DNA from: a virus
IMG/VR virus record: IMGVR_UViG_3300019850_000208
Span: 1-64,000 of that record
Length of the DNA stretch: 64,000 nucleotides
Strand: one strand, 5' to 3'
In this document: in pieces, positions 903-60,470 of the stretch
Position numbering within the stretch: position 1 is the stretch's first letter
Layout of the letters: every line of letters starts with the position of its first letter
Program-made: the position numbers and the translations under genes
The notes under the pieces: generated by a model
Seen by the model: the letters and a program-made list of their open reading frames with translations, nothing else
Told to the model about the DNA's origin: nothing
Database searches by the model: none

Positions 903-1208
903 ATGGCCATCAAAGAAAGAGATTTGCGCATTGGTGATGACTATTTAATATTCGGCCGTTACCCACCAAGTAATCCAGTGCATATATCATTGGAGCTCGC
1001 GGCATACGCTGGCAAAAGAAGACCCGGTTCACATCATCAGCTCCGTTATGGTTACTGGTTCAAGTCTAAAAAGGTGTTTTTGGAGGTACATAATGTTCCC
1101 AATTACCACAAGAAAACAGATGTTTTTCGACACCTTGGAATATTAAATAATATATATCCTCTCAACTACAAGGCAATTAAAAAGCGCTTTTTAAGAACAA
1201 TATTATGA
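903..1208 (+). CDS. Hypothetical protein
   Basis: ORF with GGGGTG RBS-like element; C-terminus KKRFLRTIL resembles the shared terminal helix. Confidence 0.6.
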   Translation: MAIKERDLRIGDDYLIFGRYPPSNPVHISLELAAYAGKRRPGSHHQLRYGYWFKSKKVFLEVHNVPNYHKKTDVFRHLGILNNIYPLNYKAIKKRFLRTIL

Positions 1209-1586
1209 TACTATCTTTTTGCCGAGGAGTGAATGCTTGGCGATGTCCCTTTTTGATGAATCGGTTTTAGCAAAATATATTTCACAATCATTTTTATTCT
1301 CCGTTTTAACATTATCCACAAAAAAAGAAATAACTTTAGCATTTAGCTCCTGGTTATAGTCCGAACTTAAAAATGTGCATCCATCACAATGATATATAAT
1401 ATTGTCTTCGGGATAAAATATCTCAAGTTTTTCATTGTAATTATAGGCATGAACAAAACTGTCCGCAACTGTATCATCTAATATCAATGTGAGTCCTGTA
1501 ATATTATATTCTTGCTTCAACGCACAGGAGCCGGCTCTAATAGTATATATGTCATTTTTATATTTTAGTGCTACCGGTCGAGTCAA
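1203..1586 (-). CDS. Hypothetical protein
   Basis: Last ORF of a tightly packed minus-strand run. Confidence 0.6.
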   Translation of the reverse strand: MTRPVALKYKNDIYTIRAGSCALKQEYNITGLTLILDDTVADSFVHAYNYNEKLEIFYPEDNIIYHCDGCTFLSSDYNQELNAKVISFFVDNVKTENKNDCEIYFAKTDSSKRDIAKHSLLGKKIVS

Positions 1587-2091
1587 TTACAGCTCCTCTC
1601 TTATATTTAATCTTTTCGATGTTTCCATTTTCATAGTACCAAATGGCATCTCCATCAAGTATGCCATCGATATACATTTCTTCAAACATTATCTGGCCAT
1701 TTGAATAATATCTAGTCGCCTTGCCTTCTTGTTCTCCTTGATTGAAACATGTTTCGTTCTTCAGATTACCATTTCTGTGCCATGTTCTAAATGGACCATT
1801 TAATATACCATTGAGTGTAAAACATTCTTTTTTAAGCCGGCCGTTTGAATAATATTCACACCATTGACCCTGAATTTTGTCATGTTTGAATGTGCCTTTT
1901 GCTTTAATAGTTTTGCCATCTTTATAATATGTCTTGAACGAACTGTTATAGGGGTCGCCGTCCCAGACTGTAACATTATCATCCAGCACTTCATCTTTTA
2001 GTATTGTTCTAGCAAATTCAAACTTCTTCATCGTTTTCATGATATTTTCCATTCTCGAGAATGAATGATTGGCGATTGCCCCATCTGTCAT
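1558..2091 (-). CDS. MORN-variant repeat protein (true start probably ~2040-2052)
   Basis: Repeats YYSNGRLKKE, WHRNGNLKNE, YYSNGQIMFE, YYENGNIE. Confidence 0.8.
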   Translation of the reverse strand: MTDGAIANHSFSRMENIMKTMKKFEFARTILKDEVLDDNVTVWDGDPYNSSFKTYYKDGKTIKAKGTFKHDKIQGQWCEYYSNGRLKKECFTLNGILNGPFRTWHRNGNLKNETCFNQGEQEGKATRYYSNGQIMFEEMYIDGILDGDAIWYYENGNIEKIKYKRGAVIDSTGSTKI

Positions 2092-2254
2092 AGTAGTTCA
2101 CTTTGCAGTTATAAACATCAATTGGCCAGTTTTTGAATTTTCTGATGAATTTTTGGGCTATTGTTGGAAGCTTTTTGACATTAGGTGAGATAAGATCTTC
2201 CGGTGATTTCCACACGTCCTTTGTTTTGAGAGCTTCCTCGAAGGTAACTGTCAT
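2018..2254 (-). CDS. Hypothetical protein
   Basis: Coupled to the upstream gene by an ATGA overlap. Confidence 0.6.
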   Translation of the reverse strand: MTVTFEEALKTKDVWKSPEDLISPNVKKLPTIAQKFIRKFKNWPIDVYNCKVNYYDRWGNRQSFILENGKYHENDEEV

Positions 2255-2595
2255 TTAGTTTTTCCATTTGACTCAAGAATAGCGAAAGTGTTATCTACTT
2301 CATCCAATTTATCTTTTACATCATTTAAGCTTTTGAGATTATCATAACTGATATATACATTATCCTTGCTGATATATATATCATAACCAAATTTGCTGTG
2401 CTTAATTGACCAGTAGCTACCACCGAGCCGATTTGCCTGCGCAATTATGTCATCACCATAAATAATCGGGCCATTGTTGGTCTCTTTTAGTATATGTTTT
2501 TTAAGGTTTTGAACCTGCGAGTATTCAACTGAAAACGCTAAAATGGCAATAACGGCGATAACTGTTACTATAGTGCTTATGCTTTTCCAACTCAT
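2251..2595 (-). CDS. Membrane-anchored/secreted hypothetical protein
   Basis: N-terminal hydrophobic segment IVTVIAVIAILAFSV; AGGAG RBS. Confidence 0.7.
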   Translation of the reverse strand: MSWKSISTIVTVIAVIAILAFSVEYSQVQNLKKHILKETNNGPIIYGDDIIAQANRLGGSYWSIKHSKFGYDIYISKDNVYISYDNLKSLNDVKDKLDEVDNTFAILESNGKTK

Positions 2596-2605
2596 TTTAT
2601 TCTCC

Positions 2606-2806: not shown

Positions 2807-2815
2807 TTTAGTCTC

Positions 2816-3697
2816 CTAAAAAATTAGAGAAGCCGCATCATCCCATTCGGAATATAATTTACAGTTTCTTCTTAATATAATATATTTTAGATTTTCTTTA
2901 TCCCCTTTGTTCATACAATTGTTATCAATTACGGTTGAAATGCCATGAATGCTATATTTGTTTGCTCCAAATGGAAGTCTATTCAAAATCCTTGAAAAAC
3001 GAATTATGTACTGTTCGAGTTTGTGCCACCATTCTTGCGTCATTGCTGTTTTTTTAATCCACTCATTTTCCGGAGCATCCTCATCTGTAGCATAGAGTTT
3101 CCTAAACGTAACTTGATCGGCTCCTAGTTCTTTACAATCTTGAAATAACTTCTCGAATGATTTATAATGTCCAAATCCTTGTTTGTTGATATTCAGGCTA
3201 AGGCGTAAATTAAAATTATTCCTTTTTATCAAATTTGCTACATGTGGCAGATCAATCTTCAAGTTTTCCGGTGTGCCATTTATTTCATTATTTATATCGG
3301 AATTCAGAGACGAGCAGGAGAGTGAAATTGTTTTCACACCTATTTTACGAAGAAAATTTAGTTTTTGCTGAGTGAGTTTCACGCCGGAGGTTTGAAGTTC
3401 TATATTTTTGAATCTACTTGATAGCGATTTGTTAATTCTGTCAAAAAGTTCCAGATATGTTTTATTAATGTGTGGCTCAGAATTTGTACCAGTGAGCACC
3501 AAAGTATTTATACCTAAATCCTTCATATATTCTAGCCTATCTTCAAATTCATACTCAAGTATGGAAGCATGTTCATAGTCACCCTTTTTAAACACATTGT
3601 TAAGCATATTATCTGATTTGCTAAGCTTTGATACACAAAATTTACATTTATTCGGACATCCACCCGGAACATCTAAGCTGGCACTTTGTATCTGCAT
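2816..3697 (-). CDS. Radical SAM protein
   Basis: CPNKCKFC (CX3CX2C) near the N-terminus; LTGTNSEP; AAGGA RBS. Confidence 0.85.
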   Translation of the reverse strand: MQIQSASLDVPGGCPNKCKFCVSKLSKSDNMLNNVFKKGDYEHASILEYEFEDRLEYMKDLGINTLVLTGTNSEPHINKTYLELFDRINKSLSSRFKNIELQTSGVKLTQQKLNFLRKIGVKTISLSCSSLNSDINNEINGTPENLKIDLPHVANLIKRNNFNLRLSLNINKQGFGHYKSFEKLFQDCKELGADQVTFRKLYATDEDAPENEWIKKTAMTQEWWHKLEQYIIRFSRILNRLPFGANKYSIHGISTVIDNNCMNKGDKENLKYIILRRNCKLYSEWDDAASLIF

Positions 3698-3717
3698 AAG
3701 TTATTCCTTTTTATTTT

Positions 3718-3746: not shown

Positions 3747-3874
3747 GCTTATTTTGAATTTATTTTTAAGTTTATATCTTTTGAACTCCATTTTAGATGA
3801 AATATATTACCGTTTTTAATTTCCATGCTAACCCTAAGAGCTCCTTGTAATATATATGTTATTATATATAGATT

Positions 3875-3882
3875 AAAGATAA
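3875..3882 (+). promoter_or_regulatory. AAAGATAA putative late-promoter motif
   Basis: The same motif precedes many late/structural genes in the sense orientation (see findings). Confidence 0.5.
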
Positions 3883-3917
3883 TTATAGTTTATAAAAACA
3901 TATATAGGTGTATAAAA

Positions 3918-4757
3918 ATGAAGAGTATAGAAATACGCGTTAGACTTTTAAGATTTTCATTGATTGTGCTTTTCTCATGTTCAATTTTCGTTTTTTCAAC
4001 GATAAAATATGCGGAGTATATTGCACGCGAGAAGAGCATCGTTATTATTCAGAACGCCAAAGAACAAGTGAACTCTTTTAAAATAGAACTTAAGAAATAT
4101 AAAGAGGAATATGACAATGTTGTTAAAATCCGCGACAATTATAGAGCCTCAATTAAAGAAATAGTTGATTTACTTTACAGCAAGGATTCTCATCTTGGCA
4201 TAGGCACTATGGAATTCAATGAAGTTAAAAACAGCGATGAGGTTACTCTGCTGACTATACGAAATACAGTCGCTACTATGAAAGATGATCAAAGGATGTT
4301 GGCGGAAGTAAAAAATTATTTAGAGGCAAGGAAAGAATTCGTTGAGAGCTTTCCATTTATATGGCCTGTGGCTGTACAAGGAGCACTTAACATATCATCT
4401 GGATTCGGTTTCAGAACTAATGTGTTTGATAAAAATAAGATAGAGTTTCATGAAGGCATAGATATAGTCGGCAATCTGAATGATCCAATTGTAGCGACAG
4501 CAGATGGTAAAATCAAAGCCGCGGGCTGGGGCAGTTTAAGCGGGTGGTATGTTGTGATTAGCCACAAAAATGGTTTTGAGACACATTACGGCCACATGAA
4601 TAAAATAACAGCAAAAGTAGGCCAGAAAGTAAAGCGCGGAGATGTCATAGGCTATATGGGAGAAACAGGAAAGACTACTGGCGTTCATTTACACTATGCC
4701 ATAGTTCATAACCATATCAGCGTAGACCCAATGAACTTTCTAGCTTTAAATTATTAA
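3918..4757 (+). CDS. M23 family metallopeptidase with N-terminal TM segment and coiled coil
   Basis: HEGID (HxxxD) and HLH (HxH) zinc motifs, THYGHM, VKRGDVIGYMG; start moved to ATG 3918 after AGGTG RBS. Confidence 0.9.
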   Translation: MKSIEIRVRLLRFSLIVLFSCSIFVFSTIKYAEYIAREKSIVIIQNAKEQVNSFKIELKKYKEEYDNVVKIRDNYRASIKEIVDLLYSKDSHLGIGTMEFNEVKNSDEVTLLTIRNTVATMKDDQRMLAEVKNYLEARKEFVESFPFIWPVAVQGALNISSGFGFRTNVFDKNKIEFHEGIDIVGNLNDPIVATADGKIKAAGWGSLSGWYVVISHKNGFETHYGHMNKITAKVGQKVKRGDVIGYMGETGKTTGVHLHYAIVHNHISVDPMNFLALNY

Positions 4758-4766
4758 GGAGATAAA

Positions 4767-5624
4767 ATGTCAGAATCAGATTTTAATAAAAAACCTTCCA
4801 ATGCCACTATTAGAAATATAATCGCCCAGGTGACAGCTGAGATTGATGCCAGATTAAAAGCAACAAATCTATATTTAAGATTGGGCATAATAGCATCCGT
4901 AGTATTGGCTGTTGTAGTAATAGGTATCGGATTCTATTTTATGAGAAATACCATCAATGATATGTACCAAACTTATATCAAAAATACAGAAAAAATAATT
5001 ATAGCTAAATCAGATATAGAGATAGCCAATTCTTGGGAAAGACTTCCTGTTCAGCAGCGCAAAGAAAGATTGAGAGAGAGATATTTTGAGATAGTTAGGT
5101 ATTATACAAATGCTGTTCCGGAGGATCAACGAATGTCCACGGAACAAATCATGGATACATTCAATAAAATTTGGGCATGCATCCAAAGGATACCATCAAT
5201 CAATTTTTTCCTTCCAGTGGCTTATATAAAGGTCGCTTCTAATTTTAATCCTGTTTATAATTCTGAATATAAAAGAGGGATTGCTGCTATGTACCGAAAA
5301 ACAGCAGAATCGGCCGCAAATTTGCCAATAGTTAAACATGACCCTATATTCCAGATAGATTACAAGGGTCTTAAAAGCTTAAATAACCCAATTGAAAGCG
5401 TTACCCTTTTGATAGCAAGAATAAATGATTTAATGACTACTTTTAATAATAGAGAAGATTGGGTGCTACTGGCATTATTTACCAATGAATATAATGTGAT
5501 AAAGAAATATTGGGATGGCGGAAAAGGAACTATTCCAGATAAAATTTATGAACAGGGCCAATTGGCCGACGCCCTTAAATTTTACCAGAACTTCAAGAAT
5601 TGGCAAATACCAGCTATAGAATGA
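4767..5624 (+). CDS. Membrane-anchored SLT-fold protein, probably catalytically inactive
   Basis: TM helix; PVAYIKVASNFNP matches SLT motif I but with Ala instead of the catalytic Glu; degenerate motifs II/III. Confidence 0.6.
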   Translation: MSESDFNKKPSNATIRNIIAQVTAEIDARLKATNLYLRLGIIASVVLAVVVIGIGFYFMRNTINDMYQTYIKNTEKIIIAKSDIEIANSWERLPVQQRKERLRERYFEIVRYYTNAVPEDQRMSTEQIMDTFNKIWACIQRIPSINFFLPVAYIKVASNFNPVYNSEYKRGIAAMYRKTAESAANLPIVKHDPIFQIDYKGLKSLNNPIESVTLLIARINDLMTTFNNREDWVLLALFTNEYNVIKKYWDGGKGTIPDKIYEQGQLADALKFYQNFKNWQIPAIE

Positions 5625-6219
5625 TGTCTTTTCTTAGATGGCCCTTGTATACTGAGAATTGTATTTTATATCTTCTCAACCTATCAACAACTTCTTTAAA
5701 GTGGCTTGGCTCTATCACATAGACACTATATGATACCGTATTGTGTGGTGTATATATTACAGGCCATTCTGAAATATTCATTCCTGGTTTGATCCAATAT
5801 GCGGCAGGCCTTCTTTTTGGAATGCTTGATATTTTATCTACTAAAAATACATCACGTACGTACCATGATCTTGGAAATGGCTTAATGAACTGACACTTAA
5901 TGCCCATAAATATCAGCAAGTAGTATAATAATTCAGTATTGGTTTGCAATTCCTTTGTTTGAGGATTAATATAAGCAAAATCATATTTTTTAACTCTGCC
6001 GGAAGTTCTTATTTTATATAATATATAACCATTTTCTGACCATCCGCCGGTAGACAAAATATCTATCATCCTGGATGGATATTGCCCTGTTTTATAACCA
6101 CCTGACCCAAATATATCATAAGGAAGATTGAGCATCAGCGATGGCATACCGATTGACATAAGCCGCGCGCCATTCTCAAATAATATCTTGAGAAGAAGCT
6201 TTTTATGAATGCTTTTCAT
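5614..6219 (-). CDS. Hypothetical protein
   Basis: 201-aa ORF downstream of rtcB. Confidence 0.65.
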   Translation of the reverse strand: MKSIHKKLLLKILFENGARLMSIGMPSLMLNLPYDIFGSGGYKTGQYPSRMIDILSTGGWSENGYILYKIRTSGRVKKYDFAYINPQTKELQTNTELLYYLLIFMGIKCQFIKPFPRSWYVRDVFLVDKISSIPKRRPAAYWIKPGMNISEWPVIYTPHNTVSYSVYVIEPSHFKEVVDRLRRYKIQFSVYKGHLRKDIIL

Positions 6220-10048: not shown

Positions 10049-10272
10049 TATTCAGGAATGCATTAATTGAATACGCTTATCAAGTTCCACTTAAAACTTG
10101 GAATGCCAAGCAAAAAAATTTATGGTATGACTTAGTGAATAGAGGAGATTTTAAGCGAAATGATGCCTCAGCTTTCATGAAGTTTGCGAAGGCTTTCAAT
10201 AAACTTTATGAAAAAAATCACAAGTTTCCGTCAATGAAGGATATAATAAAAGCGATGGAGGAGACTAAATGA
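10045..10272 (+). CDS. Hypothetical protein, possible internal head protein
   Basis: ATGA overlap start at 10045; N-terminus MIFRNALIE. Confidence 0.65.
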   Translation: MIFRNALIEYAYQVPLKTWNAKQKNLWYDLVNRGDFKRNDASAFMKFAKAFNKLYEKNHKFPSMKDIIKAMEETK

Positions 10273-11129: not shown

Positions 11130-11375
11130 ATGAAAATATTTTATTTAATTAATCCCGGGCCTTTGAAAGCTTTCAGGGCGTATGCGTTTATATATTTAGG
11201 TTCAGGCTCTAATGAACAGGGAAGCTATGTCGATGGTGAATACGTTGGAATAACAGAGAAAGAGAGAACAAAACATTTTATAAAAGCAAAGATACCTCGT
11301 TCAGACTTTGAGCGCCATTTCAAAACTGGAACAAAAGAAATCTTTGTACAAAAGTTATTTGAGGCATATGCGTGA
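11130..11375 (+). CDS. Small hypothetical protein (terminal-helix family)
   Basis: N-terminus MKIFYLINPG; C-terminus KEIFVQKLFEAYA. Confidence 0.7.
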   Translation: MKIFYLINPGPLKAFRAYAFIYLGSGSNEQGSYVDGEYVGITEKERTKHFIKAKIPRSDFERHFKTGTKEIFVQKLFEAYA

Positions 11376-11728
11376 AATATTATATTATTACAAACGTAGG
11401 CAATTATTATCCGAGAATTCATATGGTAGAAGAGTTTATGGCGAGACTGAAACCGGAAAGTTGGCAACTTCTTAAAAGATATCCAATTGTGACGCGAGTA
11501 ATACCGGCCGGCTCAATCGCGGAAAAATCGAGTATTTTTAGGGTTTTAATTAAAAAAGACGAATTGATCCTTAAGAATGAAGGGACAGCATTCGGTAAAA
11601 TAATAGATAAACATATCTATCTCTTGTTTGATAAGATAAACAAAGAAAATATTTTTGTATCCACAGAGGGTTTAAAAAAAGTCAATAAACAGGAGCATAT
11701 CAAAAAGATATTTGAGGCATCACAATGA
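11372..11728 (+). CDS. Small hypothetical protein (terminal-helix family)
   Basis: N-terminus MKYYIITNVG; C-terminus KQEHIKKIFEASQ; GTGA overlap. Confidence 0.7.
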   Translation: MKYYIITNVGNYYPRIHMVEEFMARLKPESWQLLKRYPIVTRVIPAGSIAEKSSIFRVLIKKDELILKNEGTAFGKIIDKHIYLLFDKINKENIFVSTEGLKKVNKQEHIKKIFEASQ

Positions 11729-12060
11729 AAATATCCGTTATAACTAATCCTGGCAGTAATTTTCCGAATCTCCACACCATGCCATCTTTTTTAAAAGATT
11801 TGCCTCCTATCGCCAAAGAGAAGCTCCGGCACGTCTCAAATAATAAAGTAAAAAGTAAATACATCAATAATTGGTTCACACCTTTTCAAATTATAGACCA
11901 GCTGAAACATCCAGATCCGTACTATTCTGGCGGCGATATTCCCGTTTCCGTTCTGTATAATCCTACAGACGAACAGGTGTATATTATAGACAGACCAAGA
12001 GTATTTGATAGCAAACAAGAATATTTGTTGGCACTTTTTGCTCATCTAGCACAAAGATAA
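11725..12060 (+). CDS. Small hypothetical protein (terminal-helix family)
   Basis: N-terminus MKISVITNPG; C-terminus KQEYLLALFAHLAQR; ATGA overlap. Confidence 0.7.
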   Translation: MKISVITNPGSNFPNLHTMPSFLKDLPPIAKEKLRHVSNNKVKSKYINNWFTPFQIIDQLKHPDPYYSGGDIPVSVLYNPTDEQVYIIDRPRVFDSKQEYLLALFAHLAQR

Positions 12061-12097
12061 TAATAGGATAAATGATATATTAACGAGGTAGATATCG

Positions 12098-12358
12098 ATG
12101 GATCTTTATAGCTTTTTGGAAAAATTAGAAACAGAGCTTGGACTGAATGAGCAGGTCCCAAGCAAGCATCCCGGTCTAAAAAAGGTATCAAAGAAGAAAA
12201 GGACTGAATTAGTCAAGAGAGCCAAAAAGGGCGAAGATATTGGCAAACCGGGTAAGCGCTTCAAAGAAGTAGCTGCAAAAGGCGCAGCCAGATATGGTTC
12301 CGCAGAGGCTGGTAAAAGAGTTGCTGCAGCAGCAATGTGGAAGCAAGCCGGAAAATAA
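12098..12358 (+). CDS. Basic putative internal head protein
   Basis: Acidic leader ending LNE, then a Lys/Ala-rich region (GEDIGKPGKRF...YGSAEAGKRVAAAAMWK); GAGG RBS. Confidence 0.7.
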   Translation: MDLYSFLEKLETELGLNEQVPSKHPGLKKVSKKKRTELVKRAKKGEDIGKPGKRFKEVAAKGAARYGSAEAGKRVAAAAMWKQAGK

Positions 12359-12398
12359 ATAAACAACATCACATTATATATTTAACTATTTTGATGCT

Positions 12399-12423
12399 AC
12401 CCCTGCGTGCGCGGGGGTTTTTT
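12399..12423 (+). terminator. Rho-independent terminator
   Basis: ACCCCTGC-GTGC-GCGGGGGT hairpin followed by a T-run. Confidence 0.8.
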
Positions 12424-12449
12424 GCGCAAAGATAATATATGGAGGCAAA

Positions 12450-12863
12450 ATGGCACCTTTAACTTTTTTAAAAAAGATTTGGAAATACTTGGATACAATC
12501 GTAATAATAATTCTCGCAATGTTAGCAGCATTTGGCATAATCTCTCTAAAGAAAAAATTCAAACAAAAACAAGATGAAAATGATGCGGTTAAACCTGATG
12601 AAATAAAACCTGGATATGATACAGTAAAGCCTGATACTTTTAATCCAAAACCCCACAATCCTTTTGACAATGATTACGAAGTTGTAACTCCGGATGGTGA
12701 TAAAATAGATACCCCTATTCCCGATGATAAAATAGATGAGATAATACAGCCACATGTTCATGTAGTGGATGTTGAGCCAAAACACGATAAGAAGTCCAAT
12801 AATCTACTGGATAAAATAAGAAAATATAAAACTCAAATAACGAATGCAAGACATCCTGTATGA
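12450..12863 (+). CDS. Membrane-anchored protein with Pro/Asp-rich tail
   Basis: Single N-terminal TM helix; KPD repeats; AAAGATAA at 12428-12435 and GGAGG RBS. Confidence 0.75.
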   Translation: MAPLTFLKKIWKYLDTIVIIILAMLAAFGIISLKKKFKQKQDENDAVKPDEIKPGYDTVKPDTFNPKPHNPFDNDYEVVTPDGDKIDTPIPDDKIDEIIQPHVHVVDVEPKHDKKSNNLLDKIRKYKTQITNARHPV

Positions 12864-13099
12864 TATATCGTTTGAGTATGCACAGAGAAAACGGAGAATT
12901 AATAGGTTATGTTATAAGAGAGCTAGAGCGGAATATTGAAGATGCCGGCGCCAATAAGACCAGAATCAATTTTATAGAATTTGGTCCAGGTGAAGTATTG
13001 AGAATAAAAACCGAATTAACATCCCAACATTATTTAGATAACTTAAAGAAAACAAATAAAAAAGAAATAGTACAAATTTTATTTGATGCTTTTGGATGA
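12860..13099 (+). CDS. Small hypothetical protein (terminal-helix family)
   Basis: C-terminus KKEIVQILFDAFG. Confidence 0.65.
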   Translation: MIYRLSMHRENGELIGYVIRELERNIEDAGANKTRINFIEFGPGEVLRIKTELTSQHYLDNLKKTNKKEIVQILFDAFG

Positions 13100-13102
13100 T
13101 AA

Positions 13103-13381
13103 ATGAAAGAATTATATATATATAATAGTAGGCTTTATAATAGAGGGACATTACCGATGGTTTTATATTGCGTATATGACACTAAATGGGTTGGTAAAAA
13201 AGGCGGCTTCTTTGTCAATGAGGTTGGATATGCTCATGAATTTGTCATCGAGAATAACAAAATTGATTTTATAAGAGATGCTGAAATAAATTATGATGCT
13301 TTGCAAAATTCAGATGATTATGAACCAGTAAGTACAACTAAAGCTATACAACTTATTTTTGAATTCGAGGTCAAAAAATGA
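13103..13381 (+). CDS. Small hypothetical protein (terminal-helix family)
   Basis: C-terminus TKAIQLIFEFEVKK. Confidence 0.65.
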   Translation: MKELYIYNSRLYNRGTLPMVLYCVYDTKWVGKKGGFFVNEVGYAHEFVIENNKIDFIRDAEINYDALQNSDDYEPVSTTKAIQLIFEFEVKK

Positions 13382-14055
13382 AAAAAATATTATTGATGAT
13401 ATTATTGATAATAATATGTGCGGCTTCGGTGTATGCTCAGGATGTTATTATCGATAAGACCACAATAGAAAATACCAAAAAAGATTTCGAAACCGGCCTA
13501 AGAATGCTGACTGATGCAGAAGTGGCCAAGGCCACTAAAGAAGATCTTATAAAAGATTTTTCGGATAGTCTTGTGAAGCTGTGGATACTTGAAAACTCAA
13601 CTGTTAAAAATGGCATGTTTGTTTTATATATAAATTATTCTGATCTATTTATAGATAAAGAAGGAAATGTTTATGTAAAGCCAAATTCAAAGGCCTATAT
13701 AAAAATAGGCAATGATAACTACAATCTTGAGGCGGATATAAAAATTGTTACAACCTACAAGGCCCATGTCCCAGAGCCAAAGAACAAATCTATATTTCAA
13801 ATAGAACCGAAGTTAGGAGCTGTCATTTTTACAGATTTGAAGAATATCGATTTTGATGTAGTTTTTTTAATTCAAGTTTTAAAAATCAAGAAGATAAATG
13901 TGGATCTCGGCTTCGGTTTTAGAAGTAGTGGAATTAGATTGGCGCATGGAGTTACAGATAATTTCGATATAGGTCTTTATGGTGGAATTGGGTATCCAAG
14001 GGGCACACTTGAATGGCGCCCCGTATTCGGCGTGATTGCGGCTTTCAAATTTTAA
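13378..14055 (+). CDS. Secreted protein with probable outer-membrane beta-barrel C-terminus
   Basis: Signal peptide ending VYA-Q; alternating hydrophobic strands; ends VFGVIAAFKF with terminal Phe. Confidence 0.6.
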   Translation: MKKILLMILLIIICAASVYAQDVIIDKTTIENTKKDFETGLRMLTDAEVAKATKEDLIKDFSDSLVKLWILENSTVKNGMFVLYINYSDLFIDKEGNVYVKPNSKAYIKIGNDNYNLEADIKIVTTYKAHVPEPKNKSIFQIEPKLGAVIFTDLKNIDFDVVFLIQVLKIKKINVDLGFGFRSSGIRLAHGVTDNFDIGLYGGIGYPRGTLEWRPVFGVIAAFKF

Positions 14056-14068
14056 TAGGAGTTATGAC

Positions 14069-14458
14069 ATGGATGAAGAATTTAACAAATTTTTAGAACT
14101 GACCGAGACGTATGGTCCTTCAATGCTTCAACCCGGAATAGAACAGGATTTAGAGAATCCTGAATTAGAAAGTTTATGGAAGAAATTGGATACATTAAGC
14201 AGTAGTGTTGGTGATGTGCGTAATAGTATGAGAAAATTTGTGAGTGGTGAATCTGATGAAGATAAAAAATTATATAGCCATATCACACAGGAATATTCTG
14301 AACTGGTTGATAAATTGTGGGCAGGCATAAAAACCCAAATGCAAAGTTTGCTACCCGGCGGAGCGGAAGAAGAAGAGGGTGAAGAAGAAGAGGGTGAAGA
14401 AGAACCAGAGAAGAAAATTTCCAAGACATTTGTGATCAAACAGTATCCAGAAGATTAA
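14069..14458 (+). CDS. Acidic putative head-associated protein
   Basis: Start after AGGAG; MDEEFNKFLELTE; EEEEG repeat (GAAGAAGAAGAGGGT x2 at 14366-14395). Confidence 0.7.
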   Translation: MDEEFNKFLELTETYGPSMLQPGIEQDLENPELESLWKKLDTLSSSVGDVRNSMRKFVSGESDEDKKLYSHITQEYSELVDKLWAGIKTQMQSLLPGGAEEEEGEEEEGEEEPEKKISKTFVIKQYPED

Positions 14459-54943: not shown

Positions 54944-55210
54944 TTATTTTCCTATTATTGCTTTAATAACTGGTTCAAGATGCATTTCATATTCAAAACA
55001 CAGCTTTACGAAAAGCCGTCTGTTTTTATCTGGTGTATGCAATATCTTAAAAGACCTCAGGTTTCTTGTGATTGGGTTATCTGTTTTGATTATACCAGAT
55101 ACCATAGCTAGGTCATTTTTAAAAAATACATAACCTATAATATTTACCACATCATTAGAGTGTAACTTTTGCAAATGTTCTACTTTCATTTCAATGTTTT
55201 TAGTATTCAC
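54944..55210 (-). CDS. Small hypothetical protein
   Basis: GAGG RBS, GTG start; RRLFVKLCFE near the C-terminus. Confidence 0.6.
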   Translation of the reverse strand: MNTKNIEMKVEHLQKLHSNDVVNIIGYVFFKNDLAMVSGIIKTDNPITRNLRSFKILHTPDKNRRLFVKLCFEYEMHLEPVIKAIIGK

Positions 55211-55220: not shown

Positions 55221-56255
55221 TCAGTATTGATGTCTAACTTCTATATTGGGATTGTCACCAGGTACAATCCAGCCACTATTAAACACTATATGAAATGTAC
55301 CATATTGATTGAATGGCACATTATTATACATGCCTATAAATGTGGCTATTATATATCCATTACCACTGGTCCATGGAACGCCAGACTGATTCCCGGCTCT
55401 TTCGCCTTCATTAAAATTGCTAATAAGATCCAAAGTATCTATTAAAATATTATTCTTATATAAGTATAATGCCCCTTTATCTGCTGGCCCAAAATCTATA
55501 TTCCCAGAATTGACTGGTAATGAGTTTATAATGCCATTATGAGCGTCTCCTGGACTATAATCTACGAAATATGTTCCAGAACCACTATAGTCGGACAAGA
55601 ATCCGTTATAGACAGGCGATATTGGAATATCTCCAGATAGTGGATCATGTCCTGGTGGCAGCAATTTAGCGGCTAAGCTGGCGTGTATATCAATCCAGTC
55701 ACTTTGACTTTGATCCCATCTAAAGACGTCATTTGTATCTTTTGTCAGTCTAACGTGTCCATCTATATTGCCAGTTAATGGCAAATCTCCTTCAGAGCTT
55801 ACAGGCGCCAACCACCATGAACCACCGCCCCCGCCGCCAGATATTGTTTGCCATACCGAATATTCACCATTCCAACGGTATATGGTATTAAGTTCTAATA
55901 CAAGTCTTGCTTCTCCATTCAGATTGCCAGTTAATGGCAGATCGCCATATGCCTCTACCGGCTCCCCCCAGTAATTTCCTATAACTGGAAGCCAATCGCC
56001 AATAAATACTGGGTTGCCAAATTGATCGAATCCAGCTTCCTCAACCCAAATCCATACTTTTTTATTGTCTAATGTCAGTCGTGCATCGCCATGCTTATTT
56101 CCTGATAAAGGCAGCTCGTCAAATGCGGATACTGGTTGTAGCCAATATGTTTGATCTTTGCGGTAGTAGCGATCATCGTGCACTTTCGGCGGATGAACAT
56201 TGCTAACGGCTGTAAATCGTCCATATTCGTCGACTATTACATAACGTACTGACAT
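55221..56255 (-). CDS. Virion structural protein with three DLP modules
   Basis: HDDRYY; WxxPV..DLPLTGN..G..RL x3. Confidence 0.75.
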   Translation of the reverse strand: MSVRYVIVDEYGRFTAVSNVHPPKVHDDRYYRKDQTYWLQPVSAFDELPLSGNKHGDARLTLDNKKVWIWVEEAGFDQFGNPVFIGDWLPVIGNYWGEPVEAYGDLPLTGNLNGEARLVLELNTIYRWNGEYSVWQTISGGGGGGSWWLAPVSSEGDLPLTGNIDGHVRLTKDTNDVFRWDQSQSDWIDIHASLAAKLLPPGHDPLSGDIPISPVYNGFLSDYSGSGTYFVDYSPGDAHNGIINSLPVNSGNIDFGPADKGALYLYKNNILIDTLDLISNFNEGERAGNQSGVPWTSGNGYIIATFIGMYNNVPFNQYGTFHIVFNSGWIVPGDNPNIEVRHQY

Positions 56256-56265: not shown

Positions 56266-56541
56266 TTAATGTATTATATCAAAAGCATGTTTAATAACAA
56301 ATTTTTTGTTTTTACCAGTTTTGAGATGGTTTGCGTGAATCTCAAACTCCTGATCCTGGCCTGCGACAGTCGGGCGGTTAATGTCGCTAATTGTTTTAAC
56401 AATCCATGAATTCCACCATTTATTGGCGGAAGATGATGACAATAGCTTTAGTAGTTTAACAACAGAAATATTATACCTATCATAGCCCCACTGAACAGCA
56501 GCTACTCTCACATCACCTACTCGTGGTTTGTTAAGTTTCAT
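56266..56541 (-). CDS. Small hypothetical protein (terminal-helix family)
   Basis: C-terminus KKFVIKHAFDIIH. Confidence 0.65.
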   Translation of the reverse strand: MKLNKPRVGDVRVAAVQWGYDRYNISVVKLLKLLSSSSANKWWNSWIVKTISDINRPTVAGQDQEFEIHANHLKTGKNKKFVIKHAFDIIH

Positions 56542-56888
56542 AGCTGCATATCTCCGAATAATTTCATTATAAATTGCTGCTTCTTTATAAGTTCAAGTGC
56601 CAATTCTACCCATAAGCCTGCCAACTTGCTGCTGCCGCCTATATGCCAATCTCTTATGTTCTCTGTTTCCAAACCCTCATCTCCAAGGTAGTTTTTGCCG
56701 GTTTTATAATTATAGATAGTGGCCACCATATCGCCGGGAAATTTTAGATCCCATTCGGCATCTGTCTTAAAACCGTCGCTGAAGTGTGGCTCTCCAAATG
56801 TGCCTACCAGCTTTTTATAACTTATGTCTATTTCATCTTTAAGACCTGTCCTAGCAATATTAGTAGTTTTGCCCCAAAATTTTTTCAT
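56538..56888 (-). CDS. Small phage protein (terminal-helix family)
   Basis: SYKKLVGTFGEP..KTDAEW..ATIYNYK..WHIGG core plus C-terminus KQQFIMKLFGDMQL. Confidence 0.7.
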   Translation of the reverse strand: MKKFWGKTTNIARTGLKDEIDISYKKLVGTFGEPHFSDGFKTDAEWDLKFPGDMVATIYNYKTGKNYLGDEGLETENIRDWHIGGSSKLAGLWVELALELIKKQQFIMKLFGDMQL

Positions 56889-57451
56889 TCTGGATGTCTT
56901 CCTCTTTTTAGTTTCGTGCGCCGCATGCCAAGATATGCGCCAATAAATCTTAATACTTTTGATCTTCCAATATCGGCCGGACTCTCTTGGCCTTCAGTTT
57001 TATTTGGTATTAAATCGATTCCAACCTTTTTATATGCTCTACTCACTAGCTCACTGCAGATTTTAGCCTCTTTTTCAACAAAAGGATTTCTCCATTTATC
57101 CGGCAATAACGCCATAAGTGGAAACAAAAATAACATTATATAATTATAAGATTCTCCTACATGATTCATAACTTCCGAGCATATTTTTTCGGCCTTATCA
57201 TCGGATAAATTTGGATATCTAAGAATATCAATTCTATAAAACCTTTGAGCTGTTTGTTTTAATGTTCTCACTCTAACACCCTTGCCGAATTTATTAGTAG
57301 CATCCACAATGCCTCCGCCGCCGATATAGACTGCGGCATGAGAATAAATGCTTTTTGTGAATTTTTCAATCAGTTTTCCCAAAATCGTATTATTGCACGT
57401 GACTAAGATATCCGCGCGTTTAAGATCTCTAACTAAATCGTATCTGTTCAT
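56885..57451 (-). CDS. Permuted papain-like (YiiX/YebB, NlpC/P60) enzyme
   Basis: ADIL...YSHAAVYIG...VGESYN...ICSELVSRAY...SPADI (His before Cys). Confidence 0.85.
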   Translation of the reverse strand: MNRYDLVRDLKRADILVTCNNTILGKLIEKFTKSIYSHAAVYIGGGGIVDATNKFGKGVRVRTLKQTAQRFYRIDILRYPNLSDDKAEKICSEVMNHVGESYNYIMLFLFPLMALLPDKWRNPFVEKEAKICSELVSRAYKKVGIDLIPNKTEGQESPADIGRSKVLRFIGAYLGMRRTKLKRGRHPE

Positions 57452-57485: not shown

Positions 57486-59816
57486 TCAGTCTGTAGAGTG
57501 TCCTCCTTCGCACCATCTCGTATAGTAAGGAGTTAAATTGATTACTGAGATGTTGCCTCCATTTGAGTCCAGAGAGCCATCTCTTTCAATTCCTATCCAA
57601 AGCATGTCGCCAGTGCCGCCACTTCTTCTGGAAATCATGTCGCGTATATTAATTTGGATATTTACTGTAACTTGGGTCTCTGATAATGGGACATCGACTA
57701 TTTTTGTGATAGAAACTTCTGATGGAGCCGTTGCCGGGGCGGCAGAAGTGCTAGTATACACACCATCTCCGTCAGCTGTTTTTGCTATCTTGGCCACCCA
57801 TCTTACAGTTCCGCCCGCAGACGATGATATAAATCGTAAGCTTAAATTAATAGGACAGCTTGTATCTAAATCAAATGGCAGATTGGTTACAAATCCGACT
57901 TTGTCTAGTGCACCTTTAGAGAATGAATTTTCAATTCGTCCTACGCTCAAGTCATCAGACACATAAAGTTCTTGATTATCTGGACTGTTTTGACCAGCCG
58001 CCTCTGTGAGACCCCAATCCCAGGCTAATCTACCTACAGGCCTGGCATTTCCAAAATACTCTATCCAACCATCCCCATTTACTTTTGCTCTATTTGTATG
58101 TATTTTAATATATTGAATTGTGGCGCCGGTAGTAATAGCAGATACAACTCTGAATCTTAACCAGTATGTGCTGTTTCCAGTGCCAAGAGGGTTGTTTTTT
58201 TGCCAATTGTGATTTGATTCATAATTACTGAATCTTATATTCGATAGACCAGTAGTTTCAAAACTATGACCATCGGAAGGAAAATATGCCGGCTCTGCCT
58301 GAGTGACCATTTCATTGATGTTTGCCCAACTGCTTCCATTCCAGTATTCCCATATAGCGTATCCACCTCCATTGACTAAAGCGCTGGACACATCAGTATA
58401 AATTCCAAAAAATTTGGAGTAATCGGATGTTGTTGAATTGATTAAATCCCATGTAATATAGATTGCGTCATCAACATCGGTTCCCATTGTAAATGTTGAA
58501 CCGCTCGGGCTGGCAGCTATAATAGTCATATCAGTGAATGCGGCATTGTCGTAATTATATATCCTCATGCCTCTGACTGTCGGGAATCCTTCCCCTAGAC
58601 ATGTATCATATCCCTTTTCAGCTATCCCTACATTTAATGTCTTCGCAAAGTGATGTCCTGGATTGTCCTCTTGAAGACTAACAAAATCGACAGTTATGTT
58701 GCTCCAGTCGACTACACTAATTTTTCTCACATCAAGAGTGCTGCTTGTTAATGCGACAATTCCAGTACTGTCTTCTTGAAAGATATCATAAGTTGAAATA
58801 TTACCAGAAAATACATTGTCACCTTTAATTTCTCCATTTGTTCTCGCTCTAATTGTGTAAGTGGCAGTTTTCACACCAATATCGGCGCATGAAATGCTAC
58901 CTCCATTTTCAGCAAATAATCCGTTAGTTGTATTACTCATTATAATGGATTGACCAGATTGAATTACCACATTGGCTCCATCTGCGTGAAAAACAGATGT
59001 AATATTAGAAGTCATTGATGCTACAACATGCACAGTGGCCATAGCACCAGCTGTAACATATACCAAATTGGAAATTACATTTGCACCGGTGGTTGAACCC
59101 TCCAGTTCTGAACAGTTTACAGCCGCATATGCGTTGCTGACTATTATACCATTCTGGCAATTCTTAATTTTAATATCAACTATGTTAGCATATCCAGGAG
59201 TATTCATCAGAAACCCGGCCGCACCTGTTGCTCCTTCTAATGTAAAGTATCTCAAAGAAGAAGCATTAATTCCATTAATAAGATCTTGATTCGTATTAAG
59301 AGCTTTTATTGTATTGGCTATTGTTCCTCCAGAGCCTCTTAAACTAACATATGATTTTAAATTTACAGGATTGTCCTCTGTATATATTCCAGGGGATACT
59401 ATGATAGTATATGGATTTATAGAACTCGCATCGGTAATGGTTGATAAAGCATGTTTAATTGTGGCGTAAGGCCTGCTTACTGTGCCATTGCCGGTAATAT
59501 CGCTGCCCTCTATGGTAACATATACTATTTTTGGGAGGCTCGCTGCTAATGTTATATTGACCCATGTGGCGCCATCCCACACATACATATTACTCTCATT
59601 AGTATTCCAAAATATTTGGCCTTCTTGTGGCCCGGTTGGAGGCAATAAGTCTTTGGGCAGAATTATTTGACTGTTTGAGAAATCCATAGTGCCTGAAAAA
59701 TCAAATTCTGCATTTTCTAAATATTCAAGGGATATACCGTCGGTAGGATTTTCTGGTGGGGGCATATTGATGATACGACTTGCCCCCTGCAAATCTATAT
59801 TTCCTCGCCATTTCAT
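57486..59816 (-). CDS. Tailspike-like protein with beta-helix domain
   Basis: GQIFWNT..MYVWDGATW; YVTIEGSDITGNGTVSRPYATIKHAL..VSPGIYTE; WEYWNGSSW; YWLRFRV. Confidence 0.75.
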   Translation of the reverse strand: MKWRGNIDLQGASRIINMPPPENPTDGISLEYLENAEFDFSGTMDFSNSQIILPKDLLPPTGPQEGQIFWNTNESNMYVWDGATWVNITLAASLPKIVYVTIEGSDITGNGTVSRPYATIKHALSTITDASSINPYTIIVSPGIYTEDNPVNLKSYVSLRGSGGTIANTIKALNTNQDLINGINASSLRYFTLEGATGAAGFLMNTPGYANIVDIKIKNCQNGIIVSNAYAAVNCSELEGSTTGANVISNLVYVTAGAMATVHVVASMTSNITSVFHADGANVVIQSGQSIIMSNTTNGLFAENGGSISCADIGVKTATYTIRARTNGEIKGDNVFSGNISTYDIFQEDSTGIVALTSSTLDVRKISVVDWSNITVDFVSLQEDNPGHHFAKTLNVGIAEKGYDTCLGEGFPTVRGMRIYNYDNAAFTDMTIIAASPSGSTFTMGTDVDDAIYITWDLINSTTSDYSKFFGIYTDVSSALVNGGGYAIWEYWNGSSWANINEMVTQAEPAYFPSDGHSFETTGLSNIRFSNYESNHNWQKNNPLGTGNSTYWLRFRVVSAITTGATIQYIKIHTNRAKVNGDGWIEYFGNARPVGRLAWDWGLTEAAGQNSPDNQELYVSDDLSVGRIENSFSKGALDKVGFVTNLPFDLDTSCPINLSLRFISSSAGGTVRWVAKIAKTADGDGVYTSTSAAPATAPSEVSITKIVDVPLSETQVTVNIQINIRDMISRRSGGTGDMLWIGIERDGSLDSNGGNISVINLTPYYTRWCEGGHSTD

Positions 59817-59824
59817 AGGGCTTT

Positions 59825-59888
59825 CTCCTGATCGTTAGTAGGAAGGCATTATTCGATCATATATTACGGCCGAAAGCCGCATTGCCTT
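59825..59888 (-). promoter_or_regulatory. Candidate structured 5' leader (pseudoknot / anti-SD switch)
   Basis: AAGGCA/UGCCUU stem, GCGGC/GCCGU hairpin, UGAUCG/CGAUCA pseudoknot abutting AGGAG. Confidence 0.45.
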
Positions 59889-59966
59889 GAAAATATCTTG
59901 TCGTTAAATATTAAAAAGATATTGTTTTTTGCCAAGATAAAGTTAGTATATAGAAGGAGCGAATGA

Positions 59967-60470
59967 GTGTCGACTTCAGGAGCTTTTGGATTTCGAGAGA
60001 ATGGAAAAGAATATTTCAACTATGTGAATTTTGATGCTAATCCAGGCGCATTCATTCCAAACATTAAGTTTTTGGTTTATGCTTTTGGATGGCCAAAGTT
60101 CAAACAAGAGATGCAAAAGGTTAAGTGCTATAGGTCGATTTGTTTTGTCGGTGCCATTATTGACTATATAGGTCAAGGTTCCGATCGAAAATTAAAACTG
60201 CATCTGCCTGAATTTTGGCGTCAATTAAGGCTTATAAAGCAGCGCAAACTCGGAGAATATTCGCCGCAATCAGACTATTGTAAATCATTGCCTGGGTCCT
60301 TGAAGAAAATGAAGCGTGAAATGGATTTGCAATATATCTATGCAATAAACAAGAATTCAATACGTTATAATGACGTTGTTTATGCTAGACAGGACAAGAC
60401 AGTCCCACTTGCTCCCGATGAAGAAATGAAAAAAACATGGATATTGGGAAGATTACTGGAGTTGGGTTAA
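59967..60470 (+). CDS. Hypothetical protein
   Basis: CAAGATAA (59933-59940) and AAGGAG RBS; MSTSGAFGF..Y..FDANP N-terminus; C-terminus KTWILGRLLELG. Confidence 0.7.
   Translation: MSTSGAFGFRENGKEYFNYVNFDANPGAFIPNIKFLVYAFGWPKFKQEMQKVKCYRSICFVGAIIDYIGQGSDRKLKLHLPEFWRQLRLIKQRKLGEYSPQSDYCKSLPGSLKKMKREMDLQYIYAINKNSIRYNDVVYARQDKTVPLAPDEEMKKTWILGRLLELG

What the first reader, a model, noticed from the sequence alone, without database searches (positions are those of the whole stretch)
903..60470. About ten small proteins share a terminal K-x-x-h-h-x-x-h-F-[ED] helix (possible targeting tag)
Seen: aligned C-termini KEIFVQKLFE (11130), KQEHIKKIFE (11372), KQEYLLALFA (11725), KKEIVQILFD (12860), TTKAIQLIFE (13103), KKFVIKHAFD (56266), KQQFIMKLFG (56538), KTWILGRLLE (59967) and KKRFLRTIL* (903). 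It is near-terminal in 54944 (RRLFVKLCFE) and N-terminal in 5614 (KKLLLKILFE). The bodies are mostly unrelated, and most genes sit among late structural genes. In 56538 the tag looks appended to a recognisable phage domain. Inference: a portable amphipathic docking helix that routes diverse cargo to one partner (capsid interior, ejection apparatus or a host/phage hub). I know no described system like this. Caveat: in 11130, 11372 and 56538 the FE/FG codons double as the next gene's GAGG/GGAG RBS, but not in 12860, 56266 or 59967.
Basis: partly seen in the sequence, partly recalled or inferred. Interest (0 to 1): 0.8.

Follow-up and report, generated by a model that had tools for sequence, protein, structure and literature searches.

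The report
Shared C-terminal helix tag, phage proteins
Eight or nine otherwise unrelated small proteins encoded among the neck, tail and baseplate genes of an uncultured large phage end in the same short helical peptide, which behaves like a portable address tag, but what reads the tag is still unknown.

Summary
Five proteins end in one exact register, h-h-x-x-h-F-[E/D]-x-x-x-stop, after [N/T]-K. These are 11130, 11372, 12860 and 56266 in the window, and 90821-91102(-) beyond it. Looser members are 11725, 13103 and 56538, plus a new one, 14036. Weak cases are 59967, 54944, 5614 and 903.

The strict motif hits 4 C-termini against 0.03 expected from shuffles. It hits 0 of 1435 non-coding frames of the same genome and 2 of 3499 ORFs in 954 kb of other phages. 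It survives removal of the RBS-overlap cases.

The tag is portable. The 56538 body belongs to a family of more than 360 proteins. Most of the 36 members I aligned end 12-15 residues earlier, and only its three closest relatives carry the extension. A 40%-identical homologue of 11725 keeps its tag. 11130, 11372 and 11725 are paralogues; no other bodies are detectably related.

The record is about half of a ~210-kb myovirus. No partner was identified. My best reading is a shared docking helix, comparable in logic to the T4 capsid targeting sequence or T4 clamp-binding tails. A MinD-like membrane anchor is the main rival.

This scan has noted similar genome-specific C-terminal tags in other uncultured phages.

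The parts
11130..11375 (+). Core member, 81 aa; tag TKEIFVQKLFEAYA at 11331-11372. Its GAG-G codons also form the next gene's SD.
   Evidence: A 91%-identical variant, P0124, has an identical tag.
11372..11728 (+). Core member, 118 aa; tag NKQEHIKKIFEASQ at 11684-11725 (H at the first hydrophobic position). Paralogue of 11130 and 11725.
11725..12060 (+). Looser member, 111 aa; tag SKQEYLLALFAHLAQR at 12010-12057 (A in place of E/D, 5-residue tail). Paralogue of 11372.
   Evidence: The 40%-identical homologue P0125 ends KNKKEYLVEIFQAFFS. AF2 predicts a helix at 97-109, at low confidence.
12860..13099 (+). Core member, 79 aa ORFan; tag NKKEIVQILFDAFG at 13055-13096; no RBS overlap.
13103..13381 (+). 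Looser member, 92 aa; tag TTKAIQLIFEFEVKK at 13334-13378. The 5-residue tail carries the SD of the next gene.
14036..14458 (+). New probable variant, 140 aa, acidic; poly-Glu linker followed by SKTFVIKQYPED at 14420-14455.
   Evidence: Highest-scoring non-training hit in 3 of 5 leave-one-out scans.
56266..56541 (-). Core member, 91 aa ORFan; tag NKKFVIKHAFDIIH at 56269-56310; no RBS overlap. The gene is absent at the same position in a related contig.
   Evidence: In L004 the 56538 homologue is followed directly by the 55221 homologue.
56538..56888 (-). Looser member, 116 aa. The body belongs to a large uncharacterised phage family. The tag KKQQFIMKLFGDMQL at 56541-56585 is an added extension of the last helix.
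   Evidence: 369 homologues. In the alignment of 36, only the query and its 3 closest relatives carry the extension. AF2 pLDDT 86.5 with one helix at 88-112.
59967..60470 (+). Doubtful member, 167 aa; KKTWILGRLLELG at 60429-60467 (L in place of F, 2-residue tail). Marginal coding score but a strong SD.
54944..55210 (-). Doubtful member, 88 aa; RRLFVKLCFE at 54992-55021, 15 residues from the C-terminus. Marginal coding score.
5614..6219 (-). Possible N-terminal copy, KKLLLKILFE at 6175-6204 (residues 6-15 of 201). This is the only strict match that is not C-terminal. It is translated only if the first ATG, which has no SD, is used.
903..1208 (+). Not a member. The tail IKKRFLRTIL does not fit the pattern, and the ORF did not pass my coding filter.
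56885..57451 (-). Context: Peptidase_C92 / NlpC-P60-like amidase, probably a tail-associated lysin, directly upstream of 56538.
   Evidence: Pfam PF05708, E = 6.8e-10. The same gene order is seen in L004.

Best explanation
The feature is a roughly 14-residue helix at the extreme C-terminus. It starts with a likely capping residue and reads [N/T/S]-K-[K/Q]-x-h-h-x-x-h-F-[E/D, sometimes G/A/Q]-x-x-x(-x-x)-COOH. At least eight small soluble proteins (79-140 aa) carry it. Their genes are co-transcribed with neck, fibre, tail-lysin and baseplate genes of an uncultured myovirus of about 210 kb.

Shown:
- The peptide is non-random and specific to this genome.
- It is conserved at the protein level, not the DNA level.
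- It is predicted to be helical.
- It is transferable: it has been added to a widespread domain, most of whose aligned members lack it.
- Homologues in other phages retain it.

Inferred:
- It is a short linear docking element that brings different small late proteins to one common protein target.
- The most likely target is a component of the virion or of its assembly machinery. The logic would match the T4 capsid targeting sequence, but at the C-terminus.
- Less likely, the target is a hub such as a sliding clamp encoded in the unseen half of the genome.
- On a helical wheel, positions 4, 5, 8, 9 and 12 form one hydrophobic face. The conserved acid at position 10 lies opposite that face, one turn after the K/R/Q at position 6.
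For: Statistics:
- 4 strict C-terminal hits against 0.027 expected.
- 0 of 1435 non-coding frames of the same genome, Fisher P = 2e-5.
- 2 of 3499 ORFs in other phages, and 0 of 6246 by PSSM.
- Leave-one-out ranks of 1 in 4 of 5 cases.
- One core member, 90821, lies outside the window from which the pattern was defined.
- Every strict hit in the proteome is terminal.

Selection at the protein level: codons differ at synonymous sites among the tags.

Portability:
- 56538 belongs to a family with 369 hits. In the alignment of 36, only the query and its three closest relatives (54-66% identity) have the extra turns, and they conserve K, I and F within them.
- AF2 predicts one continuous helix at 88-112, with pLDDT 91 over residues 101-110.

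Retention in homologues: P0125 is 40% identical to 11725 and ends KNKKEYLVEIFQAFFS.

Bodies unrelated apart from the paralogous trio:
- blastp.
- hhalign between the two families aligns only the tags.
- No Pfam or PHROG family for any tagged protein.

Accessory character: 56266 is missing between conserved neighbours in the related contig L004.

Late structural context.

Precedents for transferable terminal peptides on diverse phage proteins: PMC3012670 and PMC9026906 (capsid targeting sequence), PMC2988020 (clamp-binding tails).
Against: - No partner was identified and no binding or localisation test was possible.
- The hydrophobic moment of the tags (0.15-0.35) is not above that of other C-termini (mean 0.29).
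- Only 8-9 proteins are involved, and 3 are tandem paralogues, so there may be only about 6 independent acquisitions.
- Native C-terminal helices in the wider 56538 family also end in h-h-x-x-h-F-G-like patterns. Part of the pattern may therefore be ordinary terminal-helix grammar.
- Most tagged proteins are ORFans, so 'tag added to an older body' is shown for one protein only.
- Only about 51% of the genome is available.
Confidence: 0.4

Rival explanations
1. Membrane anchor. The tag is a MinD-type C-terminal membrane targeting helix that holds the small proteins reversibly at the inner face of the cytoplasmic membrane, for example where tails or baseplates assemble or where host envelope functions are targeted.
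For: - The core h-h-x-x-h-F aligns without gaps with the E. coli MinD tag KGFLKRLFGG (sequence from PMC5471200).
- That peptide scores 6.8 bits on the tag PSSM, a level reached by only 13 of 33,533 non-member positions.
- MinD tags are extreme C-terminal, transferable and about the same length (PMC13537761).
- B. subtilis MinD ends F-F-G-V-R-S, which is F-G plus 3 residues.
- The tagged proteins are otherwise soluble, with negative GRAVY.
Against: - The most conserved polar position is an acid (E/D in 6 of 9), and the net charge of the tags is only 0 to +2. That is unfavourable for binding anionic lipid.
- The B. subtilis MinD tag does not fit the PSSM in register.
- I compared only four peptides (E. 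coli MinD, three registers of B. subtilis MinD and one HCV helix), and one hit at 4e-4 is a lead, not a test.
- Nothing explains why membrane anchors would cluster in tail operons.
Confidence: 0.2
2. No common target. The helix is an ordinary structural or self-association element, packing on each protein's own body or forming homo-oligomers. The small proteins inherited it through old duplications or 3'-end recombination, and it persists because it stabilises each fold.
For: - Three members are tandem paralogues with shared N- and C-termini.
- Five of the members lie in one 2.3-kb array (11130-13381).
- Many untagged members of the 56538 family naturally end in a similar h-h-x-x-h-F-G helix.
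- Small phage ORFans diverge beyond recognition quickly.
- The K/R/Q(6)-E/D(10) pair is a standard i, i+4 helix-stabilising pair (read directly from the sequences).
Against: - In 56538 the tag is added beyond the family's native last helix, so it is not needed for that fold.
- 56266, 56538 and 90821 are 34-80 kb away from the array, and their bodies show no similarity to it.
- The register relative to the stop is identical (tail of 3) in five proteins.
- The pattern is 18-fold or more rarer in other phages.
Confidence: 0.2
3. Clamp-binding (PIP-like) tail. The tag tethers the small proteins to a phage or host sliding clamp, as the C-termini of T4 gp43, gp33 and gp55 do.
For: - The location is extreme C-terminal.
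- The tags read x-x-h-h-x-x-h-F.
- Three tags begin K-Q-x-x-h-x-x-h-F, which is Q-x-x-h-x-x-h-F like a PIP box.
- 90821 has the aromatic pair Y-F.
- T4 tails are 'hydrophobic and acidic', interchangeable, and tethered by divergent linkers (PMC2988020).
Against: - Q is present in only 3 of 9 tags, and the double aromatic in only 1 of 9.
- The tags are net basic.
- No clamp gene (PF09116, PF00712) is found in the available half of the genome.
- The genes sit in tail operons, not replication or transcription modules.
Confidence: 0.08
4. Degron or processing signal. The tail marks transiently needed assembly factors for a protease, or h-F-E is a T4-like L/I-x-E prohead-protease site.
For: - h-F-[E/D] resembles the T4 gp21 cleavage context.
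- T4 Alt is processed at its C-terminus as well (PMC9026906).
- Exposed hydrophobic C-termini are common degrons (general knowledge).
Against: - Cleavage after E/D would remove only three residues and leave the conserved part attached.
- D at that position blocks T4 processing (PMC9026906), yet D is used in 2 of 5 core tags.
- No head or prohead-protease genes are in this half of the genome. The neighbour 56885 is a C92 amidase, not a ClpP-like protease.
Confidence: 0.06
5. Nucleic-acid or translation artefact. AU-rich, SD-containing 3' ends selected for coupling to the next gene happen to encode similar peptides, or the similarity is chance in an AT-rich genome.
For: - In 11130, 11372, 13103 and 56538 the E or G codons form the next gene's GAGG/GGAG.
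- K, I, F and L are AT-rich codons.
Against: - Shuffling the last 30 residues keeps local composition yet gives 0.028 hits against 4.
- Non-coding frames give 0 of 1435.
- 12860, 56266 and 90821 have their downstream SD after the stop or outside the F-[E/D] codons.
- Synonymous sites vary.
Confidence: 0.03

Closest known systems
T4 capsid targeting sequence (CTS) of internal proteins IPI, IPII and IPIII (PMC3012670, PMC9026906)
   Same: A roughly 10-residue terminal peptide is the only thing shared by a diverse, fast-evolving set of small phage proteins. It is transferable to foreign proteins. Lys, aromatic and hydrophobic residues matter, and it ends in h-x-E.
   Different: - The CTS is N-terminal and is removed by the prohead protease. 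This tag is C-terminal, and cleavage at h-F-E would not remove it.
- CTS cargo goes to the head scaffolding core, whereas these genes lie in neck, tail and baseplate operons.
- No head genes are visible in this half of the genome.
- Packaging is untested.
C-terminal sliding-clamp-binding epitopes of T4 gp43, gp33 and gp55, and PIP boxes (PMC2988020)
   Same: These are short hydrophobic peptides at the extreme C-terminus. They are interchangeable between unrelated proteins, follow variable linkers, and are read by one hub.
   Different: - T4 tails are hydrophobic and acidic, whereas this tag is basic at its start with a single acid.
- The canonical Q and double aromatic are mostly missing.
- No clamp gene is found in the available half.
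- The carriers are tail-module ORFans, not replication or transcription proteins.
MinD membrane targeting sequence (E. coli KGFLKRLFGG, PMC5471200; B. subtilis KGMMAKIKSFFGVRS, PMC13537761)
   Same: It is an extreme C-terminal transferable helix of the same length. The K-x-h-h-x-x-h-F-G core matches the tag in register, closest to 56538 (FIMKLFG).
   Different: - The MinD tag has net charge about +3 and no acid. This tag conserves E/D after F and has net charge 0 to +2.
- The MinD target is lipid, not protein.
- The resemblance is modest (6.8 bits).
Encapsulin cargo-loading peptides and microcompartment encapsulation peptides (from my own knowledge)
   Same: Short terminal helices or peptides, often after a linker, load unrelated cargo into one protein shell. 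14036 has such a linker (poly-Glu) before its tail.
   Different: The consensus sequences differ. No shell genes of those kinds are seen here. These systems are not phage tail-module proteins.

Membership tests
T4-type capsid targeting sequence | Located at the N-terminus of the precursor | tested here: not met
   Eight or nine copies are C-terminal. The one N-terminal copy (5614) depends on an unsupported start codon.
T4-type capsid targeting sequence | Removed by the prohead protease at L/I-x-E at the end of the peptide | tested here: inconclusive
   h-F-[E/D] is present, but cleavage there would leave the tag on the protein. D is used in 2 of 5 core tags. No protease gene is found in this half.
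T4-type capsid targeting sequence | Directs cargo into the prohead core or virion | not testable with these tools
   Needs virion proteomics or reporter packaging.
Clamp-binding tail / PIP box | Extreme C-terminal hydrophobic peptide | tested here: met
   The tail after F-[E/D] is 3-5 residues long.
Clamp-binding tail / PIP box | Consensus Q-x-x-[ILM]-x-x-[FY]-[FY] (from my knowledge), or the hydrophobic and acidic composition of T4 tails (PMC2988020) | tested here: not met
   Q is in 3 of 9 tags and the aromatic pair in 1 of 9. Net charge is 0 to +2.
Clamp-binding tail / PIP box | A clamp encoded by the phage or host that binds it | tested here: inconclusive
   PF09116 and PF00712 are absent from the 108.6-kb record, but CheckV completeness is 51%.
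MinD-type membrane targeting sequence | Short amphipathic helix at the extreme C-terminus with an h-h-x-x-h-F core | tested here: met
   Register match to KGFLKRLFG, 6.8 bits, top 0.04% of positions. Helix predicted by AF2.
MinD-type membrane targeting sequence | Cationic polar face without conserved acids | tested here: not met
   E/D follows F in 6 of 9 tags. Net charge is 0 to +2. The hydrophobic moment is not above background.
MinD-type membrane targeting sequence | Binds membrane | not testable with these tools
   Needs localisation or liposome assays.
Single paralogous protein family (common fold) | Detectable homology across the bodies | tested here: not met
   Only 11130, 11372 and 11725 are related. 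The N-terminal PSSM does not pick up 13103 or 12860. hhalign between the 56538 clade and the trio family aligns only the tags, E = 0.034, probability 1.5%.

The most novel reading that the evidence does not exclude
The peptide is a C-terminal address tag, a counterpart of the T4 capsid targeting sequence placed at the other end of the protein. Through it, a large uncultured myovirus would load a changeable set of small accessory proteins onto one socket of its tail, baseplate or virion, or onto one hub, for delivery or assembly. It would be one instance of a wider, undescribed habit of large phages: giving their accessory proteins a genome-specific C-terminal tag. This scan has noted similar tags in several other uncultured phages.
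Probability: 0.2. Interest if true: 0.8.

Novelty: new variant of a known kind. Interest (0 to 1): 0.5.

Why it matters
If one partner reads the tag, it would give a handle on a set of otherwise unapproachable phage ORFans. A 14-residue tag that recruits proteins to a phage structure, a hub or the membrane could also be used for loading cargo. It would extend the T4 capsid-targeting idea to a C-terminal signal used by tail-module genes. If the tag is only a structural helix, the finding is a modest note on how phage small genes evolve.

Tried and rejected
- Pfam and PHROGs on all tagged proteins: nothing significant. PHROGs on 36 members of the 56538 family: none.
- PDB by sequence: nothing. 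Foldseek and VIA-align on the 56538 model: only one unrelated mitoribosomal chain at Z 8.2.
- ESM Atlas for 56266: low-confidence model and no usable hit.
- Homologue searches for 90821 and 12860: only the query itself.
- Attempts to fetch related phage genomes, to look for more tagged genes, all failed:
  - The search for related loci with the neighbours 10269 and 55221, with P0125 and with alignment A5 in viral contigs found no relatives.
  - The metagenome scan gave only a 1.3-kb contig.
  - The genome-contig scan found nothing for P0125 and only distant homologues for P0005. The one that covers the tag region ends without a tag, and no tagged ORFs were seen nearby.
  - tblastn against cultured phages gave only distant baseplate J hits, or one environmental phage.
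- A ClpP-like protease next to 56538, suggested by PHROGs, was rejected. Pfam identifies a C92/NlpC-P60 amidase.
- N-terminal similarity of 13103 and 12860 to the trio is not significant.
- DNA-level repeat or promoter explanation: synonymous sites vary.
- A ribosome-arrest peptide with fixed spacing to the stop was considered and set aside. The looser members and the homologues have tails of 3-5 residues after the residue that follows F, and the stall site would cover the downstream start codon.
- Literature searches found no description of such a tag in tail-module proteins.
Full report
**Context.** The window is the first 64 kb of a 108,574-bp linear IMG/VR virus record. CheckV rates the record 51% complete, so the phage is probably about 210 kb. 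No close relative exists among cultured phages. I built a gene model of 104 genes, 95% coding, with SD-like motifs upstream of 78 genes.

Recognisable genes show that most of the record is a myovirus tail, baseplate and fibre region:
- a tape measure protein at 98962-102195;
- a hub-like protein, a gp25-like wedge protein at 90452-90811, and baseplate J at 88206-90452;
- a 565-aa tail fibre at 53245-54942 and a tail protein at 57486-59816, with more fibres noted by other readers;
- a C92/NlpC-P60 amidase at 56885-57451;
- a protein at 10269-11126 that matches part of a head-tail adaptor profile;

No head, replication or clamp genes were found in this half.

**The observation.** All eleven peptides are present in the named ORFs. 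Five proteins share one exact register, [N/T]-K-x-x-h-h-x-x-h-F-[E/D]-x-x-x-stop. Four are in the window (11130, 11372, 12860, 56266). The fifth, 90821-91102(-), lies outside it and ends KGIVIRQYFERYS. A further similarity often precedes the tag (h-K-[K/T]-[G/T/V]), suggesting a turn and a capping residue before the helix.

Looser copies:
- 11725 has A instead of the acid and a 5-residue tail.
- 13103 has a 5-residue tail.
- 56538 has G and a 4-residue tail.

The other four cases are weak:
- 59967 has L for F and a low coding score.
- In 54944 the motif lies 15 residues from the end.
- In 5614 the copy is N-terminal and behind an ATG without an SD-like motif.
- 903 does not fit, and its ORF is not in my gene model.

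**Is it more than chance?** Yes.
Four lie exactly 3 residues from the stop and one at residues 6-15 of 5614.
- Shuffles that keep the composition of each small protein, or of only its last 30 residues, give 0.027-0.028 C-terminal matches. None of 3000 shuffles reaches 4.
- Open frames of at least 30 codons outside the gene model, in the same genome, give 0 of 1435 (Fisher P = 2e-5). This answers the AT-rich-background objection.
- In 954 kb from 69 unrelated phage loci there are 2 strict matches in 3499 ORFs. No C-terminal PSSM hit of 8 or more occurs among 6246 ORFs.
- In leave-one-out scoring, the omitted member is the best non-training position of 33,277 in four of five cases.
- 90821 is an out-of-sample hit for a pattern defined on the window alone.
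- After removing the RBS-overlap genes, three strict matches remain against about 0.03 expected.
- Codons at synonymous sites differ among the tags, so selection acts on the peptide and not on a DNA or RNA element.

**Are the bodies unrelated, and is the tag portable?**
- 11130, 11372 and 11725 are tandem paralogues with a shared N-terminus (MK-x-x-x-I-x-N-x-G) as well as the tag. An hmmsearch with their profile recovers all three.
- No other pair of bodies is related by blastp, by an N-terminal PSSM or by hhalign, whose best alignment between the 56538 clade and the trio family covers only the tags.
- None has a Pfam or PHROG family.

The key test came from 56538. Its body belongs to a large uncharacterised family, with 369 hits at E of 0.01 or less. 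In an alignment of 36 members, most end 12-15 residues earlier. Only the query and its three closest relatives (54-66% identity) carry the extension, in which K, I and F are invariant. AlphaFold2 with that alignment (pLDDT 86.5) predicts one continuous helix at 88-112. The tag is therefore a three-turn prolongation of the family's last helix.

A second family gives the same answer. P0125, 40% identical to 11725, ends KNKKEYLVEIFQAFFS. P0124, a 91% variant of 11130, has an identical tag.

A related 1.3-kb metagenome contig has the order amidase, tagged 56538 homologue, 55221 homologue, with no 56266 gene between them. At least one tagged gene is therefore an accessory insertion or deletion.

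**What it is not.**
- It is not an RBS or composition by-product (see the controls above).
- It is not demonstrably more amphipathic than other C-termini by Eisenberg moment: 0.15-0.35 against a background of 0.29 ± 0.15. On a helical wheel, positions 4, 5, 8, 9 and 12 do fall on one face and the acid at position 10 on the opposite face.
- The tagged proteins are soluble, with pI from 4.4 to 10.1.
- One caution: several untagged members of the 56538 family end their native helix in h-h-x-x-h-F-G-x-x-x. Part of the pattern may be ordinary terminal-helix grammar.

**Mechanism.** I rank a shared protein-docking helix first, at about 0.4. The argument is by exclusion and analogy. The peptide is selected, terminal, transferable and specific to this genome, and it sits on proteins that share nothing else. 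That is how known docking peptides look.

[quoted passage not shown] Ten residues suffice and work on foreign proteins (PMC9026906).
- The late structural context favours a virion or assembly target. A clamp-type hub cannot be excluded, because half the genome is missing.

The main rival, at about 0.2, is a MinD-like membrane anchor. KGFLKRLFGG (PMC5471200) aligns in register with the tag and scores in the top 0.04% of positions on the tag PSSM. The conserved acid and the low net charge argue against it.

A purely structural or self-association helix inherited by descent or 3'-end recombination also gets about 0.2. Degron or processing, clamp binding specifically, and artefact take the remainder.

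**Comparison and novelty.** The tag fails the defining features of the T4 capsid targeting sequence (wrong terminus). It fails the canonical PIP or clamp consensus. It also fails the cationic character of MinD tags. It works like those systems at most by analogy. I found no paper describing a shared C-terminal tag on tail-module small proteins.

Notes of this scan report comparable genome-specific C-terminal tags in several other uncultured phages. Another first-stage reader flagged the same tails on an overlapping window of this genome. Those are unchecked leads, not evidence.

I class this as a new variant of a known kind, namely transferable terminal docking peptides. Interest is moderate.

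**Limits.**
- The second model, for 11725, is of low confidence (pLDDT 61) and supports only the helical state of the tag.

Noticed in passing
window 56538-56888 (-), alignment A1: The body of this protein defines a large phage protein family with no Pfam, PHROG or PDB relative. It has 369 hits, mostly from aquatic or environmental metagenomes. Near-invariant motifs are FGEP, DGYKTDAEW, ATIYNYK-GKNY and DWHIGG. The AF2 model is confident (pLDDT 86.5) and its only structural neighbour is a Tetrahymena mitoribosomal protein (Z 8.2).
   Followed up: partly
window 14036-14458 (+): A 140-aa, very acidic (pI 4.4), helix-rich protein with a run of Glu/Gly-Glu just before a tag-like tail. It looks like a scaffold or chaperone with a tethered docking peptide.
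   Followed up: partly
window 56266-56541 (-) versus L004:469-1348: The 91-aa tagged gene is absent from a related metagenome contig, where the 56538 homologue is followed directly by the 55221 homologue. This is an accessory-gene indel inside a conserved tail operon.
   Followed up: partly
window 55221-56255 (-): A 344-aa protein with three repeats of about 50 aa (W-x-x-P-V-x-x-x-x-D-L-P-L-T-G-N-x-x-G-x-x-R-L) and a Gly run. It has no PHROG family. The relative in L004 has one repeat fewer.
   Followed up: no
window 60499-60675 (-): A 58-aa protein with a hydrophobic N-terminus and a Lys-rich tail, KKAFAFVKKIFKKK. The tail contains the same h-h-x-x-h-F core but is followed by Lys instead of an acid. 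It may be a small membrane protein.
   Followed up: no
window 14471-54942, several genes: Several proteins here, which other readers' notes call fibres (only 53245-54942 has a PHROGs tail-fibre match), start with similar N-terminal peptides, such as M-x-A-T-Q-V-K and M-x-x-T-R-I-N. Other readers of this genome also noted this. A link between these N-terminal peptides and the C-terminal tags was not tested.
   Followed up: no
whole record (G000): The record is linear and CheckV rates it 51% complete. No capsid, terminase, portal, sheath, tube or replication genes were recognised among the proteins I scanned. The phage is probably a jumbo myovirus of which only the tail and accessory half is present.
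   Followed up: partly
window 344-883, 1558-2091, 2816-3697, 3825-4757, 6233-7504: The left end encodes a sulfotransferase-family protein, a MORN-repeat protein, a radical SAM protein, an M23 peptidase and an RtcB RNA ligase.
   Followed up: no
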